From NCBI GenBank assembly GCA_035482155.1, contig DATHRB010000053.1, positions 17,620-81,619 of the forward strand: a DNA stretch of 64,000 bases. The letters are read 5' to 3'. Every line of letters starts with the position of its first letter. Position 1 is the stretch's first letter. The DNA comes from Verrucomicrobiia bacterium (GTDB lineage Bacteria; Acidobacteriota; Terriglobia; Acidiferrales; UBA7541). Positions 26,593-31,219 of the stretch are shown here, in pieces. Both the position numbers and the translations under genes were made by a program. The notes beneath the pieces are model-generated. The model saw only the letters and a list, made by a program, of their open reading frames with translations. It was not told the DNA's origin and ran no database searches.

Positions 26593-26733
26593 GTATACTT
26601 TCCTTTGTTAGAATCCGCTGTTGCTCGCCTCTGGCGGCCAGCATGCATCCTACGATGCCGTGAACGGACGGGATGGATGCGTAGCCCGAAATCCTCGAGA
26701 GGCTAAATCGACACGAAGTTTGGCTTGAGGCCC

Positions 26734-27831
26734 ATGAAAAGTCTACGAAAAACCGTAATCGTCGCCCTCACCACCACACTCATCCCCTTCATCGCAATGA
26801 ACGCCCAGGAAACTAAGCCAGATACCCCTGCTCCCGCACCAAATGCTCACCAGCCCCCACCTCCGGCCGATACCGGCGCCAATGGCCAGGCTGGTAGAAT
26901 CGTAATCCCCGTTAATCAGGTCATCGTTCCCGTCACCGTCAAAGACGGTTCCGGCCGCCTCGTCCCCGACCTGTCCAAAGACGAATTTCGCATCTTCGAA
27001 GACCAGGTCGAGCAGCGCATCGCTTATTTCAGCAACGAAGCCTTCCCGCTTTCCATGGTCATTCTCATCGACAACGACCTAAAACGGAAAGATGCCGAGG
27101 AAGTTGCCGCCAGCCTGAAAGCCATCATTATGGGTTTGAGCACCGCCGATGAAGCCTACATCGCTCGCTTCGATCAGTTTTTCCACGAAGGCCCCGGCTT
27201 CACGAAGAATCAGGACAAATTACTCACCGAAATTAAACGCACCGAATTGGACACCAAGCCGTCCGTAGCACCGCCTGGCCCCGCGATGACCGACGGCCCG
27301 GTAATCAATGGACACTCCGCCATCGGCGATTCACCCAACGTCGCCCCTACCGTTAATCTCGTCAAAGGCCAGAGCACCAAGGCTCTCGACGACGCCGTCT
27401 ACAGCGCGGCGCAACTCCTGAAAGACCGCGGCCGCGAGCGCCGCAAAATCATCTTCCTCATTTCCGACGGCGCCAACGGAATCAGAACTAATACCCACGA
27501 TTACAAGTCCACTGTAAAAGAATTGCTGCGTTACGAGATCTCCGTCTATAGCGTCGCCGTCAGCAGTGCCTATTTCGAACGCCGCTTCAGTCGACTGGTC
27601 GATTACGCTCACGACTCCGGAGGCGATGTCTACTTCGCCGCCAAGCGCAGCACCATGGAAGAACTCTATTCCCGCGTCACCGAAGAAGCCCGCAATCAAT
27701 ACACCCTGGCGTACTCCCCAGCCGGAACGAATCGCGCGCTCGACTACCACACCATCGAAGTTCGCGTGAAGCGTGAAGGCCTGACGGTTGACGCTCGCGA
27801 AGGCTACTACGCCGGCGCCGCCCCCCACTAA
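26734..27831 (+). CDS. Acidobacterial VWA-domain protein 3 (degenerate MIDAS)
   Basis: VPVTVKDGSG, ILIDNDLK in place of DxSxS, ISDGANG, ARNQYTLAY. Confidence 0.85.
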   Translation: MKSLRKTVIVALTTTLIPFIAMNAQETKPDTPAPAPNAHQPPPPADTGANGQAGRIVIPVNQVIVPVTVKDGSGRLVPDLSKDEFRIFEDQVEQRIAYFSNEAFPLSMVILIDNDLKRKDAEEVAASLKAIIMGLSTADEAYIARFDQFFHEGPGFTKNQDKLLTEIKRTELDTKPSVAPPGPAMTDGPVINGHSAIGDSPNVAPTVNLVKGQSTKALDDAVYSAAQLLKDRGRERRKIIFLISDGANGIRTNTHDYKSTVKELLRYEISVYSVAVSSAYFERRFSRLVDYAHDSGGDVYFAAKRSTMEELYSRVTEEARNQYTLAYSPAGTNRALDYHTIEVRVKREGLTVDAREGYYAGAAPH

Positions 27832-27878: not shown

Positions 27879-27918
27879 CCGGGTGGCCTACGCTTTGCGA
27901 TTTTTGCAAAGGGTGGGC
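27879..27918 (+). repeat. REP-like palindromic element, longer divergent copy D
   Basis: CCGGGTGGCCTACGCTTTGCGATTTTTGCAAAGGGTGGGC; stem CTTTGC/GCAAAG with the shared GATTT loop and GGGTG ends. Confidence 0.5.
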
Positions 27919-28081
27919 GCTTCTGCTCAGCTTTCTTCCATCCGCCACGCGCTGCCTCCCTCGCTTCTTCCGCATTCAACAAAAATTTTGTTTTTTGCTG
28001 CTAGTGCCCGCGACTTTTTTGTGAGACAACTATATCGGGCCGAGCGATTTTTTCCGGCCATTGAAAATTGCGGAGGTGTTT

Positions 28082-28129
28082 GTGAAGAAGAAGCCAGCAA
28101 AGAAGAGCAGCACAAAAAAAGGTAAGTAG
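28082..28129 (+). CDS. Candidate 15-aa Lys-rich micropeptide MKKKPAKKSSTKKGK
   Basis: GGAGGT at 28072-28077, GTG at 28082, TAG at 28127-28129, then a terminator hairpin. Below the ORF-track size cutoff. Confidence 0.55.
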   Translation: MKKKPAKKSSTKKGK

Positions 28130-28145
28130 CACCTCATTCAGATTG

Positions 28146-28191
28146 AAAAAAAGGGCGCAGCGGATTTTTTCGCAGCGCCCTTTCTTATTTT
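28146..28191. terminator. Bidirectional intrinsic terminator
   Basis: A-tract, GGGCGCAGCG...CGCAGCGCCC, then TTTCTTATTTT; lies between the micro-ORF (+) and the helicase (-). Confidence 0.8.
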
Positions 28192-28231
28192 CAAGAGTTC
28201 GAATCGCTTCAACAACTCCGTCTAGCTCCGT

Positions 28232-31219
28232 CTACGAACTCAATGCCTCTTCATGACTCGGGCAAATCGGCCGGTAAGCACAATTGCGGCACAGGTACCC
28301 CGGCTTTGGCGGAAACTGTCCGGCGCGAATGTCCTCCGCGACCTCCTGCACAATTTTCTGCGCATCTTGCAGTTGCTTGGCATCTCGCGTTGTCGCCTGT
28401 ATCTGATTATTTTGCAGGTAATGAAACACCAGCCGCACAGGGTTCCATTCGAATATCTCCACCGCCGCCAGCGCGTAAATGCTCAACTGCAAATCCCGCC
28501 GTGCATCCAGATCCTTCTTCGGCTTCCCGGTTTTGTAATCCACGATTTCCACGTTGTTACCGCCCAACGCATTCACCTGGTCAATGCGCCCGGCAATAAT
28601 CACGTTGTTCTCCATCGGCAATTCGAACGTCTTCTCCTGCTCCAGAATTTCCGGCAAACTCTCCAGCATCGCCGCGTGAAATACTTTCAGCTGTTCCAGC
28701 CCATCTTTCTTGTATTCGTTCTCCTGATAATCGTCCTCAAACCCCGCCGATTTCCATTCCGTCTCAAATATTCGTTGCACTTCCTCGAATGGCAACTTGT
28801 TGCCCTTGCGCAATTCCGCCAGCGTTCGCCTGATCGTGTCGTGCACCACCCGCCCAAACGTCAACGTCCCTCGCGGCCCTTCCTCCAGCGCCCATAGCCG
28901 CCCAAACAAATATTGCTGCGGGCATCTGCGGTAATTGTCCAGCGCCGAAGGGCTCAGCTTCAGCGGCTCCGGCGACGGGGGATGAAACGTTTCCGCCCAC
29001 GAAGCAATGCGCGAAAAAATTCGCGGCGGATCAATCGGCGCCGGAAACAATGAAGCCGCCATCGCGCTGCCGCTCGGAACCACATCACTCGGCACTCGCG
29101 CAGCCAGTCGTGGCGCCATCTGCACCACGTCCCGCCACTTCACCAGCGGATCCATCACAATGTCCTCGACAAAAGTAGGCACTTTGCCTTTTTTGTCCGT
29201 CAACGTGGTAATCGTCAGCCGTTCGCGCGCCCGCGTCAGCGCCACGTAAAACAGCCGCCGCTCTTCCTGAATGTGGAATTGCTCCGCGGGCGCGCCTTCT
29301 TTCATCAGCTCGGCAGGGAACTCAAACACCCGCGTCCGCTCCGACGCCGGAAACGCCTTGTTATTCAGCCGGAGCAAAAACACGTGCGGAAACTCCAGCC
29401 CCTTCGCGCCGTGTACCGTCATCAACTGCACCGCATCGCCCGGAACATCGTCTTCCAGGCTCACCGTCCCGCCCGCCTGATCGAAATAATCCAGATACTC
29501 CAAAAACTCCGCTAGCCCCTTCGTATCGCTTTTCGGCTCCCACTCCACAACAAATTCCGCCAGCCGCGTCACATATTTGCGATCCTGCACCGCCGCGCGC
29601 TCGCGAATTTCCAACCAGTCGATCACCGATCCCAGAATTTGTTTCGCGCTCCTCCGGTTAATTGTCTTTCGTTGCGCCAAAAGAAAATCCAGCAGCACCT
29701 GTACCGCCGCTTGTGACGCATCAAACGCCAGTTCCGTCTGCGGTGCCTGCAAAATATCGATCAGCGCGGCCCCGCGTTTCTTCGAAGCCCGCTGCGTCAG
29801 CCTCACCAAATCTTCCGGCTCCATATGCCAAGCCGGCGCCGCCAACACCCGTGCGCACGCCACATCGTCGTATGGCTGCGCGATCAGCCGTAGGTACGCC
29901 AGTACATCCCGCACCAACGGATGCTCCAGAATCGAAAGCTTGCTGATCACAAATGGAATCTTTGCCCGCGAAAGCTCTTCCACCAGATGATCGCGATGCG
30001 CGTGTTGCCGGTACAACACCGCGAAATCCTTCCAGCGGTGTCCCGCGCGGTGCAGCCGTTGCAGTTCCCCCGTAACCCACCGCGACTCATCATCCGCATT
30101 GGCCAGTTCCGCGATGCGAATTTTCTCACCCTCGGGGTGCGGCGTCGTCAGTACCTTGGGAGGAAAGCGTTCGCTGCGCGCGTTTTGTCCGATAACGTGC
30201 GTCGCCACCCGCAAAATATTCGGCGTGGACCGGTAATTCTCCGTCAACGTCACGCGATACCGGCTGGGATCGTCCGTATCCTTTAACCCCGCGAATCTCT
30301 TTTCAAAAATGGCAAAGCTCGCGAACGAAGCTCCGCGAAAACGGTAAATGGCCTGGTCGTTGTCGCCCACCACAAAAATATTTCGCGGCTCCGCGCACAA
30401 CAGATCTAGCAGCTCGATTTGCGCGATATTTGTATCCTGAAACTCGTCCACCAGGATGTAGCGGTAACGCTGTCGCAGTTTTTCTCGCAGCGCCGCATCT
30501 TTTTGCAGCAGTTCCACCGCGCCGGTAATCAGCGAATTAATTGATACGCGATTCTTCGCGCGCAGCAATCCCTCGCTGGCCCCGTAAGCCCGCGCAATCT
30601 CCTGTTGCAGCGCCACCTGGTCGGCGCGCTCCGCGTACGTATCCTCGTCCAGCTCCCCGCGCTCTGCTTCCAGTTTCGTCCCTAATCCATCCGCATAGCG
30701 CTGGAAGTCTTCGCAGGACACGAGCTCGTCCTGGCAGCGGCTGAAAAATTCCAGAAAATCATTCAGGAACTGTCCCGGGTCCGGCAGCCGCCGGTATTTC
30801 TCCAGCCGCAGCCGCGCCAAATTCCGCCGCAATAAAATCCAGTGATCGCATTTATCCAGAATCACCCGGCCGGGATCCAGTTCCACCAGCAGCGCCTCGC
30901 AAAACGAATGAAACGTCGCCAGCGTGACGTCCTTGCCCCGCTCTCCCACCGCCTTCACCACCCGCGCCTTCATCTCCCCGGCCGCCTTCTTGGTAAAAGT
31001 CAGCCCCAGAATATTTTCGCCCGTAATCGATGCATCATTCTCCAGCAGGTGCCGGATCCGCTCCGTAATCACCCGCGTCTTCCCCGTCCCCGCCCCCGCA
31101 ATCACCAGCAGTGGCCCCGCCCCATGCGTAATCGCGCGCCGCTGCGTCTCATTCACACCCAGCAGGGGACTAGCCGTCGCCGGCAGCCCCATTTCAAAAA
31201 GTGTAGCCATCCGTTCCAT
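28232..31219 (-). CDS. UvrD/PcrA-family SF1 helicase fused to a C-terminal PD-(D/E)XK (RecB/AddB/Cas4-like) nuclease
   Basis: Walker A AGAGTGKT, LVDEFQD, VGDNDQAIYRFRGA, TVHGAKGLEF, EERRLFYVALTRAR; nuclease GRIDQV, DYKTG, QLSIY; Cys in YRRCPQ plus CRNCAYRPIC. Confidence 0.92.
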   Translation of the reverse strand: MERMATLFEMGLPATASPLLGVNETQRRAITHGAGPLLVIAGAGTGKTRVITERIRHLLENDASITGENILGLTFTKKAAGEMKARVVKAVGERGKDVTLATFHSFCEALLVELDPGRVILDKCDHWILLRRNLARLRLEKYRRLPDPGQFLNDFLEFFSRCQDELVSCEDFQRYADGLGTKLEAERGELDEDTYAERADQVALQQEIARAYGASEGLLRAKNRVSINSLITGAVELLQKDAALREKLRQRYRYILVDEFQDTNIAQIELLDLLCAEPRNIFVVGDNDQAIYRFRGASFASFAIFEKRFAGLKDTDDPSRYRVTLTENYRSTPNILRVATHVIGQNARSERFPPKVLTTPHPEGEKIRIAELANADDESRWVTGELQRLHRAGHRWKDFAVLYRQHAHRDHLVEELSRAKIPFVISKLSILEHPLVRDVLAYLRLIAQPYDDVACARVLAAPAWHMEPEDLVRLTQRASKKRGAALIDILQAPQTELAFDASQAAVQVLLDFLLAQRKTINRRSAKQILGSVIDWLEIRERAAVQDRKYVTRLAEFVVEWEPKSDTKGLAEFLEYLDYFDQAGGTVSLEDDVPGDAVQLMTVHGAKGLEFPHVFLLRLNNKAFPASERTRVFEFPAELMKEGAPAEQFHIQEERRLFYVALTRARERLTITTLTDKKGKVPTFVEDIVMDPLVKWRDVVQMAPRLAARVPSDVVPSGSAMAASLFPAPIDPPRIFSRIASWAETFHPPSPEPLKLSPSALDNYRRCPQQYLFGRLWALEEGPRGTLTFGRVVHDTIRRTLAELRKGNKLPFEEVQRIFETEWKSAGFEDDYQENEYKKDGLEQLKVFHAAMLESLPEILEQEKTFELPMENNVIIAGRIDQVNALGGNNVEIVDYKTGKPKKDLDARRDLQLSIYALAAVEIFEWNPVRLVFHYLQNNQIQATTRDAKQLQDAQKIVQEVAEDIRAGQFPPKPGYLCRNCAYRPICPSHEEALSS

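What the first reader, a model, noticed from the sequence alone, without database searches (positions are those of the whole stretch)
28072..28191. Unannotated 15-aa Lys-rich micropeptide gene with its own SD and terminator
Seen: GGAGGT, a 4-nt spacer, GTG, then MKKKPAKKSSTKKGK* (8 of 15 residues Lys, no acidic residues), followed 17 nt later by a strong terminator. It sits alone in a 400-bp intergenic gap. Known: short K/P/A-rich peptides resemble histone H1-like tails and small ribosome-associated basic proteins. Inference: a real expressed small protein that binds nucleic acid, ribosome or polyphosphate and is invisible to gene callers.
Basis: partly seen in the sequence, partly recalled or inferred. 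Interest (0 to 1): 0.7.

Follow-up and report, generated by a model that had tools for sequence, protein, structure and literature searches.

The report
Conserved unannotated oligolysine micro-gene
The 15-codon lysine-rich reading frame is a real gene that no annotation records. Soil Acidobacteria of the order Candidatus Acidiferrales keep it under protein-level selection, and it encodes a tiny peptide of about +8 charge whose cellular target is still unknown.

Summary
GGAGG lies at 28072-28076. GTG at 28082 opens MKKKPAKKSSTKKGK*, which ends at 28129, and a -23 kcal/mol terminator spans 28146-28192. It is the only ORF in the 4.48-Mb genome that combines 10-30 aa, at least 40% Lys, an SD and a terminator.

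It is a genuine coding gene.
- About 17 species-level relatives and 22 metagenome copies found without using the peptide all keep the frame.
- Start (GTG/ATG) and stop (TAG/TAA) codons vary. ORF lengths are only 48, 51 or 54 nt, while the adjacent leader takes seven lengths in all three frame classes.
- Variable columns fall 1/1/8 on codon positions 1/2/3.
- Antisense frames are broken in relatives.

More distant genomes were retrieved only through the neighbouring helicase gene. There the same gap holds diverged 11-18-aa peptides (for example MAKKAKKPAKKAKKK, MKKKGKKDEAKGPKKGK) with net charge +7 to +10. They carry a near-consensus TTGAC(A/T)-N17-TATAnn promoter, an AAGGAG SD and a terminator. 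In two genomes the whole cassette is inverted.

It is not an attenuator, and it belongs to no Pfam, NCBIfam or Rfam family. The function (polycation binding to RNA, ribosome or DNA) is inferred, not shown. Earlier notes of this scan describe the same class of micro-gene in other lineages.

The parts
27993..28005 (+). Invariant upstream block 1, TTTTGCTGCTAGT (TTTTGYYGCTAGT across the clade)
   Evidence: Identical in all 17 species-level relatives that were found through the peptide pattern alone. Its distance to block 2 is fixed. Its role is unknown: promoter or operator.
28020..28030 (+). Invariant upstream block 2, TGTGAGACAAC
   Evidence: Invariant in all 17 relatives. The exact 11-mer occurs once in the 4.48-Mb genome, and near matches are no commoner than the reversed control. 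It sits where the spacer of the promoter lies in more distant relatives.
28031..28036 (+). -10-like hexamer TATATC. It occupies the position of the TATAnn -10 of the near-consensus promoters of distant relatives.
   Evidence: In 20 of 21 distant family members, TTGAC(A/T)-N17-TATAnn lies 52-108 nt upstream of the start. In this clade the -35 is degenerate (GCGACT at a 15-nt spacing) and the hexamer varies (TATATC, TATAGC, TGTAGC). The assignment is an inference.
28038..28059 (+). 5'-proximal stem-loop of the leader (GGCCG / CGGCC, 12-nt loop)
   Evidence: Predicted in the minimum-energy folds. A hairpin is kept at this position with different sequences in relatives: ACCGG/CCGGU, CCGGCGA/UUGCCGG.
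28072..28076 (+). Shine-Dalgarno GGAGG, 5 nt before the start codon
   Evidence: GGAGG is invariant in the clade; distant members have AAGGAG.
28082..28129 (+). Micro-gene: GTG start, 15 codons, TAG stop; MKKKPAKKSSTKKGK, net charge +8
   Evidence: Start GTG/ATG and stop TAG/TAA both vary. ORF lengths are 48, 51 or 54 nt only. Variable columns fall 1/1/8 on codon positions 1/2/3. All 22 complete units found through the upstream motif alone keep the frame.
28130..28135 (+). CACCTC directly after the stop, complementary to the SD region GGAGGTG (possible closed-loop pairing)
   Evidence: The duplex energy is -12.5 kcal/mol and the pairing appears in the minimum-energy fold of the window and of L023. 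CACCTC or CACCTT is kept in 13 of 17 clade members and is absent in L020, L033, L035 and L038 and in distant relatives. It is a clade-limited feature of uncertain function.
28146..28192 (.). Bidirectional intrinsic terminator: A-tract, stem GGGCGCAGCG/CGCAGCGCCC, T-tract
   Evidence: Fold energy -23.2 kcal/mol. It is kept in position with compensatory changes in relatives. The convergent helicase gene ends 40 nt beyond it.

Best explanation
This is a genuine protein-coding micro-gene. It encodes a 15-residue oligolysine peptide (net charge +8) in a Candidatus Acidiferrum genome (Acidobacteriota, Terriglobia, Candidatus Acidiferrales).

The gene is a compact cassette:
- upstream control region;
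- a leader of about 45 nt with a 5' stem-loop;
- GGAGG;
- the GTG-started ORF;
- a bidirectional terminator.

The cassette lies in a stable slot between a TIGR03436 VWA gene and a UvrD-like helicase-nuclease gene. It is one member of an order-wide family of 11-18-residue peptides. In that family the sequence drifts, but the lysine content (44-73%) and the net charge (+7 to +10) are held. In most lineages the family is driven by a near-consensus sigma-70 promoter and a strong SD.

Shown here: it is coding, it is under purifying selection, it is an autonomous cassette, and it is unannotated.

Inferred: the peptide is made in quantity and acts as a free polycation that binds polyanions electrostatically, most likely rRNA or ribosomes, or DNA. 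That is, it would work like a detached histone-tail or a micro ribosomal protein, not as a sequence-specific regulator of its neighbours.
For: Coding:
- GTG/ATG and TAG/TAA alternate among relatives.
- ORF lengths are only 48, 51 or 54 nt, whereas the adjacent leader has seven lengths (62-69 nt) in all three mod-3 classes.
- Nine 15-codon alleles vary at codon positions 1/2/3 in 1/1/8 columns. Ser switches between AGC and TCC.
- The peptide is identical in G358, whose neighbouring VWA protein is only 75% identical.

Peptide-blind samples:
- blastn found G015 and G017, the latter with a 6-nt in-frame insertion.
- All 22 complete metagenome units found through the upstream motif alone carry MKKKPAKK[S/T][S/T/A]TKKGK, or the 17-aa form, in 13 nucleotide alleles.
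- Loci retrieved only through the helicase carry a Lys-rich smORF with an SD, usually with a scored terminator. The counts are 10 of 12 genus loci and 9 of 24 wider loci, against a background of 0.016 per region.

Autonomous cassette:
- 20 of 21 distant members have TTGAC(A/T)-N17-TATAnn.
- The whole unit is inverted in G001 and G010.
- G520 carries one in a different genomic context.

Charge: 25 peptides of 11-18 aa have net charge +7 to +10. Members with Asp or Glu carry extra Lys.

Uniqueness: it is the only such ORF in the genome.

Unannotated.
Against: In this particular clade the consensus promoter of the wider family is replaced by an unexplained invariant motif with a poor -35. Strong expression is therefore less certain here than in relatives.

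The gene was not found near the helicase in 15 of 24 wider loci or in 2 of 12 genus loci. It is therefore either dispensable or located elsewhere in those genomes.

Polyanion binding rests on composition alone.

The third codon positions are shared with one antisense frame. Synonymous-site evidence alone therefore cannot exclude that frame; it is excluded on other grounds.
Confidence: 0.55

Rival explanations
1. It is specifically a ribosomal micro-protein, an analogue of bS22, eL41, bL37 or bTHX, that fills an rRNA pocket in Acidiferrales ribosomes.
For: It has the size, basicity and stand-alone unannotated gene typical of bL37 (24 aa, pI 12) and bS22 (PMC10081302). Most family members have a strong promoter and SD. 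The genome has no recognisable bS22 (PF08213), while the control search did find it in Corynebacterium.
Against: The sequence turns over quickly within one genus (47-67% identity, with Asp/Glu gained and lost), which suggests non-specific electrostatics. There is no match to PF08213. It was not found near the helicase in many genomes of the order. It is not linked to ribosomal protein operons.
Confidence: 0.2
2. The functional product is the RNA: a small regulatory RNA, or a dual-function RNA whose A/G-rich (ARN-like) tract and U-tailed terminator bind a chaperone. The ORF would then be incidental or secondary.
For: The roughly 155-nt unit ends in a terminator. 10 of 14 triplets in the ORF fit A-R-N. 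The SD can pair with CACCUC just after the stop (-12.5 kcal/mol). The upstream blocks are more conserved than the ORF's third codon positions.
Against: The substitution and indel pattern is that of a coding sequence. Ser AGC to TCC breaks an ARN triplet but keeps the residue. RNAalifold finds no covariation beyond the 5' hairpin and the terminator; the covariation terms are +0.97 and -0.28 kcal/mol. There is no Rfam match. The post-stop CACCUC is missing in 4 of 17 clade members and in all distant members. Hfq is not detected above the family cut-off in this genome.
Confidence: 0.07
3. It is a lysine-sensing leader peptide or attenuator (hisL/pheL type), or a poly-Lys translational stall sensor.
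For: 8 of its 15 codons are Lys codons, and a strong terminator follows closely. This resembles hisL and pheL.
Against: There is no co-directional downstream gene; the next gene is convergent. There is no antiterminator: the best pairing of the ORF and 3' spacer with the terminator's 5' arm is -6.4 kcal/mol, and 47% of shuffles do as well, against -23.2 kcal/mol for the terminator itself. The cassette is inverted in two genomes and sits in a different context in G520, yet keeps its form.
Confidence: 0.03
4. The real gene is on the minus strand, a small hydrophobic peptide: either the 43-aa LLTFFCAALLCWLLL... or the 35-aa MRCYLPFFVLLFFAGFFF... The Lys frame would then be its antisense shadow.
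For: Both antisense frames are open in the window. The 43-aa frame spans exactly the conserved block. One antisense frame shares its wobble positions with the Lys frame.
Against: In-frame stops or frameshifts interrupt these frames in L017, L020, L023 and L035. The ATG of the 35-aa frame is not conserved (ATT or TTA in relatives), and the C-termini differ by frameshift. There is no SD, and the terminator lies directly upstream of these frames. The Ser-to-Ser change AGC to TCC would place Glu in the hydrophobic stretch.
Confidence: 0.02
5. It is a chance ORF in an A-rich spacer.
For: It is very short, and short ORFs abound.
Against: It is unique in the genome. It is conserved with coding signatures in more than 40 independent sequences and across an order.
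Confidence: 0.01

Closest known systems
Polybasic ribosomal micro-proteins: bL37 (24 aa), bS22 (about 33 aa, DUF1713/PF08213), eL41, bTHX
   Same: They are tiny and extremely basic, and are encoded by stand-alone genes that annotation often misses (bL37 of M. tuberculosis is unannotated; PMC10081302). They bind rRNA phosphates through Lys and Arg.
   Different: There is no sequence relationship: no PF08213 hit, and PF08213 is absent from the genome. This peptide is shorter (11-18 aa), almost purely Lys with small residues, and has no Arg, His or aromatic residues. Its sequence drifts within a genus, and no ribosome association has been shown.
Bacterial histone-H1-like Lys/Ala/Pro-rich proteins and tails (Chlamydia Hc2, PF07382; Burkholderiales H1-like protein, NF038053; AlgP and PhaF KPAA repeats)
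   Same: The composition is the same (K, A, P, S, T). PAKK and S/TPKK-type motifs occur, for example KKSPKKGK and KKTPKKGK in two clade members.
   Different: Those proteins have 100-200 or more residues with long repeats. Here the whole protein is a single 'tail' of 15 residues. Only a 32-aa relative (G475) gives a sub-threshold hit: PF07382 at 19.2 bits against a cut-off of 40, and NF038053 at 14.7 against 80.
Unannotated polylysine micro-genes noted earlier in this scan in other Acidobacteriota, Chloroflexota, Binataceae and others (e1-753483, e1-4456222, e1-2187675, e1-979383, e1-937074, e1-1122133)
   Same: The cassette logic is the same: strong promoter, folded leader, strong SD, 11-25 Lys-rich codons, terminator. 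Charge is conserved rather than sequence, and the genes are absent from databases.
   Different: Those notes are AI notes on other lineages. No sequence-level homology to them was tested here. This family has its own syntenic slot next to the helicase-nuclease gene, a KKGK C-terminus, and in this clade a replaced promoter region.
Leader-peptide attenuators (hisL, pheL, thrL)
   Same: A peptide of about 15 codons, half of them for one amino acid, followed by an intrinsic terminator.
   Different: There is no antiterminator and no downstream gene to control (gene map).

Membership tests
bS22 / DUF1713 (PF08213) | Match to the PF08213 profile (Lys/Arg-rich C-terminal helix of about 33 residues) | tested here: not met
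   Pfam scan of two concatenated copies of the window peptide and of three longer relatives gave no PF08213 hit at E<=10. A six-frame search of the whole genome gave nothing at E<=1, while the control search found the family in Corynebacterium glutamicum.
bS22 / bL37 / eL41-type ribosomal micro-proteins (functional class) | Physical presence in purified ribosomes | not testable with these tools
   This needs cryo-EM or mass spectrometry of ribosomes from a carrier organism.
Histone H1-like Hc2 (PF07382) / NF038053 | Profile match above the curated cut-off | tested here: not met
   Only the 32-aa relative of G475 matched: 19.2 bits against a cut-off of 40 (PF07382) and 14.7 against 80 (NF038053). 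The window peptide gave nothing.
Leader-peptide transcription attenuator | Run of codons for the sensed amino acid within a short ORF | tested here: met
   8 of 15 codons are Lys codons.
Leader-peptide transcription attenuator | Alternative antiterminator pairing that competes with the terminator | tested here: not met
   The best duplex with the terminator's 5' arm is -6.4 kcal/mol. The shuffle mean is -6.6, and 47% of shuffles do as well. The terminator itself is -23.2 kcal/mol.
Leader-peptide transcription attenuator | Co-directional structural gene downstream of the terminator | tested here: not met
   The next gene (28232-31219) is on the opposite strand. The cassette is inverted or relocated in other genomes.
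Known structured RNA families (Rfam 15) | Covariance-model match at the gathering score | tested here: not met
   No match reached a gathering score in the window region; the best was PyrG_leader at 22.7 bits against 65. There were no matches in 20 related loci.
Protein-coding gene (generic) | Frame-preserving indels, synonymous bias, and conserved start, stop and SD across relatives | tested here: met

The most novel reading that the evidence does not exclude
The gene may be one lineage of a very widespread but unrecorded class of the shortest conserved bacterial genes. These would be charge-counted oligolysine peptides (here +8 +/- 1), made from dedicated high-expression cassettes. They would serve either as an unrecognised integral component of ribosomes or nucleoid in Acidobacteriota, or as a genetically encoded counter-ion in place of polyamines or Mg2+. 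In the window's clade the consensus promoter would have been replaced by a dedicated regulatory site (TTTTGYYGCTAGT-N14-TGTGAGACAAC), making the amount of polycation controllable.
Probability: 0.3. Interest if true: 0.8.

Novelty: new variant of a known kind. Interest (0 to 1): 0.6.

Why it matters
Genes of 11-18 codons lie below the length threshold of gene callers. Yet it is conserved across an order of abundant soil bacteria, with the expression signals of a highly expressed gene.

If the peptide is a ribosomal or nucleoid component, or a bulk counter-ion, then a basic part of the cell biology of Acidobacteria is missing from every annotation. The case also gives a clean test set for smORF detection methods: a syntenic slot, peptide-blind retrieval, and conservation of charge rather than of sequence.

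Tried and rejected
- **Profile search.** A search of genomes with the 17-position peptide alignment did not even recover the window's own gene. The query is too short, so its empty answer says nothing.
- **Length limits.** The search for homologous proteins needs at least 40 aa and the listing of cluster members at least 20 aa.
- **Phylum-wide helicase anchoring.** The helicase orthologue is not recognisable beyond the class, so synteny cannot trace the gene further.
- **Class-wide peptide pattern, ATG..KKGK*.** It recovered three known members and one new one (G520). The pattern is narrow, so absence elsewhere is uninformative.
- **Long-range pairing UUUUGCUGCU / AGCCAGCAAAG proposed by RNAalifold.** Rejected: C·A or C·C mismatches in most GCCGCU-type sequences and no covariation.
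- **Promoter reading of the invariant blocks.** Rejected or unresolved. I tried sigma-70 -35/-10, extended -10, sigma-54, ECF-type, Bacteroidota-type and CRP half-site readings. None fits. The 11-mer is unique in the genome, so it is not a regulon motif.
- **Extended 22-aa ORF from TTG 28061.** Rejected: there is no SD, and the extension hits a stop in G347.
- **Literature searches.** They returned nothing on bacterial oligolysine micro-genes.

Full report
**Observation.**
- GGAGGT lies at 28072-28077, then a 4-nt spacer, then GTG at 28082.
- The ORF reads MKKKPAKKSSTKKGK* and ends at 28129.
- An A-tract begins 17 nt later, at 28146. It leads into a stem GGGCGCAGCG / CGCAGCGCCC (28153-28180) and a T-tract (28181-28192). 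The fold energy is -23.2 kcal/mol.
- The gap between the flanking genes is 400 bp.

The flanks are a TIGR03436 'acidobact_VWFA' gene (26725-27831, plus strand) and a UvrD/PcrA-like SF1 helicase with a Cas4/AddB-like C-terminal nuclease (28232-31219, minus strand). The hairpin has A- and T-runs on both sides, so it is a bidirectional terminator shared with the convergent helicase gene.

**Chance.** In the whole 4.48-Mb assembly (55% G+C, both strands), 1078 ORFs of 10-30 aa have at least 45% Lys+Arg. Only one has at least 40% Lys, an SD and a terminator, and it is this one. ORFs of 9-35 aa with at least 35% Lys occur at 0.016 per 905 nt, and almost all lack an SD and a terminator.

**Close relatives.** blastn of the gap against 40 relatives found two homologous gaps, in G015 (85% identity) and G017 (71%). 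G017 has an ATG start, a 6-nt in-frame insertion (MKKKPAKSAKKSPKKGK), the same SD, and a terminator with compensatory changes.

A degenerate peptide pattern found 7 further loci in 401 genomes of the family, all in the window's genus, and none with the reversed control pattern. The same kind of pattern found 16 loci among 185,579 species genomes.
- Fourteen of the 16 records are titled as Acidobacteriota, Candidatus Acidoferrum, Candidatus Acidiferrales or 'uncultured bacterium'.
- Two are labelled Methylomirabilota and Verrucomicrobiia, but their flanking genes are 93-99% identical to the window's.

The NCBI lineage is Acidobacteriota; Terriglobia; Candidatus Acidiferrales. Synteny VWA(+) > smORF(+) < helicase(-) holds in all of these loci.

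**Coding evidence.** Among about 17 species-level sequences there are seven peptide forms of 15-17 residues.
- GTG and ATG alternate as start codons, and TAG and TAA as stop codons.
- ORF lengths are 48, 51 or 54 nt only. The adjacent leader (the 11-mer through to the start codon) has seven lengths from 62 to 69 nt, in all three mod-3 classes.
- Nine 15-codon alleles vary in 1/1/8 columns at codon positions 1/2/3. Ser switches between AGC and TCC.
- G358 has an identical peptide, although its VWA protein is only 75% identical.

Because the pattern itself fixed 11 codons, I took a sample that did not use the peptide. The invariant upstream motif alone retrieved 26 metagenome contigs. All 22 with a complete unit carry an intact frame: MKKKPAKK[S/T][S/T/A]TKKGK, or the 17-aa form, in 13 nucleotide alleles. 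They differ mainly at third positions and in the stop codon.

**Antisense frames.** Two minus-strand frames are open in the window: a 43-aa LLTFFCAALLCWLLL... and a 35-aa MRCYLPFFVLLFFAGFFF.... The first spans exactly the conserved block, so I tested it. In relatives these frames are interrupted by stops or frameshifts (L017, L020, L023, L035). The ATG of the 35-aa frame is not conserved, and the C-termini differ by frameshift. There is no SD, and the terminator lies immediately upstream of them. I reject both.

**Wider family.** Loci were fetched only through the C-terminal 199 residues of the helicase.
- In 10 of 12 genus members that lack the pattern, the same gap holds a diverged Lys-rich smORF. 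Examples are MKKKSKSGKMNPKKEK, MKKKGKKDEAKGPKKGK, MAKKVKKPAKKAKKK, MAKKPAKKAAKKPAKKK, MKKKAKKEDKKAPKKAK and MKKKGKKDDMKKGGKKK.
- In G001 and G010 the whole cassette is inverted (MAKKATKKTAKPTKKKGK, MKKKPKKDAKPPKKGK).
- In a second set, 9 of 24 loci have one. These include other genera and other families of the order: MKKPAKKETKKKGK, MKKAPKKATKKKGK, MKKAKKKAKKKGK, MAKKAKKAAKTAKKGSKR, MKKKAAKKKKK, MKKGAKKKAKKKGKK and a 28-aa form.
- A class-level pattern search added G520 (MKKTAKKAAKKKGK), which lies in a different genomic context. G475 has a 32-aa AKKPAAKK-repeat form next to its helicase homologue.

With a background of 0.016 per region, 19 of 36 loci cannot be chance.

Twenty of 21 of these members have TTGAC(A/T)-N17-TATAnn 52-108 nt upstream of the ATG. 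Nineteen have an SD, mostly AAGGAG. Sixteen have a terminator by my crude scan. Their leaders usually start with a stable hairpin and leave the SD open. The mean folding z-score is -1.06, and no shared structure is evident.

The net charge of the 25 peptides of 11-18 aa is +7 to +10. Members with Asp or Glu carry more Lys.

**The window's clade differs upstream.** In place of the consensus -35 and spacer it has two invariant blocks at a fixed distance: TTTTGYYGCTAGT (27993-28005) and TGTGAGACAAC (28020-28030). They are followed by a weak -10-like TATATC/TGTAGC. The 11-mer is unique in the genome. I could not fit these blocks to any promoter type I know, and this remains unexplained. In relatives with a short gap, only about 25-35 nt separate the VWA stop from block 1, which leaves no room for a terminator. 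Co-transcription with the VWA gene is therefore possible.

**What it is not.**
- It is not an attenuator. There is no antiterminator (-6.4 kcal/mol, equal to the shuffles, against -23.2 for the terminator), and there is no co-directional downstream gene.
- It is not a known RNA family.
- It is not a structured sRNA by covariation.
- It is not bS22. There is no PF08213 hit, and PF08213 is absent from the genome, although the control search found it in Corynebacterium.
- It is not an Hc2 or H1-like family member. Only a 32-aa relative scores, and it falls below the cut-offs.
- The versions of 20 aa or more are absent from a collection of 15 billion predicted proteins.

**Mechanism.**
- *Shown:* it is a self-contained, selected, coding cassette.
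- *Inferred:* it is highly expressed. In the wider family this follows from the consensus promoter and the strong SD; it is less certain in this clade. The product would be a free polycation. What selection holds constant is charge and small-residue composition, not sequence. That argues for electrostatic binding to a polyanion (rRNA or ribosome, DNA, possibly polyphosphate) rather than a specific protein partner.

The published analogues are bL37 and bS22 (PMC10081302), but membership in those families is not supported.

A clade-limited SD/anti-SD pairing (GGAGGUG with CACCUC directly after the stop, -12.5 kcal/mol) could close the mRNA on itself. It is absent in four clade members and in distant relatives.

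**Relation to earlier notes of this scan.** Word searches returned many AI notes on similar unannotated polylysine micro-genes in other Acidobacteriota and other phyla. They reached the same conclusions: a real gene, its own cassette, unknown function. I treat them as leads. My results were obtained independently and agree with them. This instance adds five things:
- an order-wide syntenic slot;
- inversion of the cassette;
- a narrow charge window;
- peptide-blind confirmation;
- a replaced promoter region.

**Verdict.** The gene is real, with confidence of about 0.9. The function is unknown but most likely polyanion binding; confidence in the combined statement is 0.55. It is a new variant of the known kind 'polybasic micro-protein' and is not in any database I could query. 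Interest is 0.6.

Noticed in passing
window 27879-27925: A REP-like imperfect palindrome (GGGTGGCCTACSCTTTGCGRTTTTTGCAAAGGGTGGGCGC) lies in the same gap. It has about 10 copies in this genome and many in other genomes of the genus. It is absent from the short-gap relatives, so it is an insertion between the VWA gene and the micro-gene cassette.
   Followed up: partly
window 27993-28030: Clade-specific invariant blocks TTTTGYYGCTAGT-N14-TGTGAGACAAC replace the consensus TTGACW -35 and spacer of the wider family. The 11-mer occurs once in the genome. They fit no promoter or operator type that I tried.
   Followed up: partly
L034 (DATHGV010000178.1) and L039 (DATMOS010000104.1): Contigs in MAGs labelled Methylomirabilota and Verrucomicrobiia carry this locus. 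Their VWA and helicase proteins are 93-99% identical to the window's. These contigs are probably mis-binned Acidiferrum DNA.
   Followed up: partly
L054 (G001) and L055 (G010): The whole promoter-smORF-terminator cassette is inverted within the same VWA-helicase gap. This shows that it moves as a unit.
   Followed up: yes
L082 (G475:C54), about 1183 on the minus strand of the locus: A 32-aa AKKPAAKK-repeat ORF (MAAAKKPAAKKAAPKKAAAKKPAAKKPAAKKR) with promoter, SD and terminator lies beside the helicase homologue of another Terriglobia family. It may be an expanded relative that bridges to H1-like repeat proteins.
   Followed up: partly
L043 and L046 (G011, G021): In these genomes the gap is enlarged to about 570-770 nt and appears to hold an additional reading frame on the strand opposite the VWA gene, judging from the hydrophobic-looking reverse translation. 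G021 and G008 have no Lys-rich smORF in the gap.
   Followed up: no
G000:C12:35294-35437 (own genome): The only Hfq-like (PF17209) signal in the genome is below the family cut-off (23.4 bits against 27). It lies in a 115-aa open frame. A canonical Hfq may be absent or divergent.
   Followed up: no
window 28037-28047 and 28170-28180: The 5' arm of the leader hairpin (GGGCCGAGCGA) is complementary to the 3' arm of the terminator (-12.6 kcal/mol). By eye the resemblance does not extend to G017, so it is probably coincidence.
   Followed up: partly
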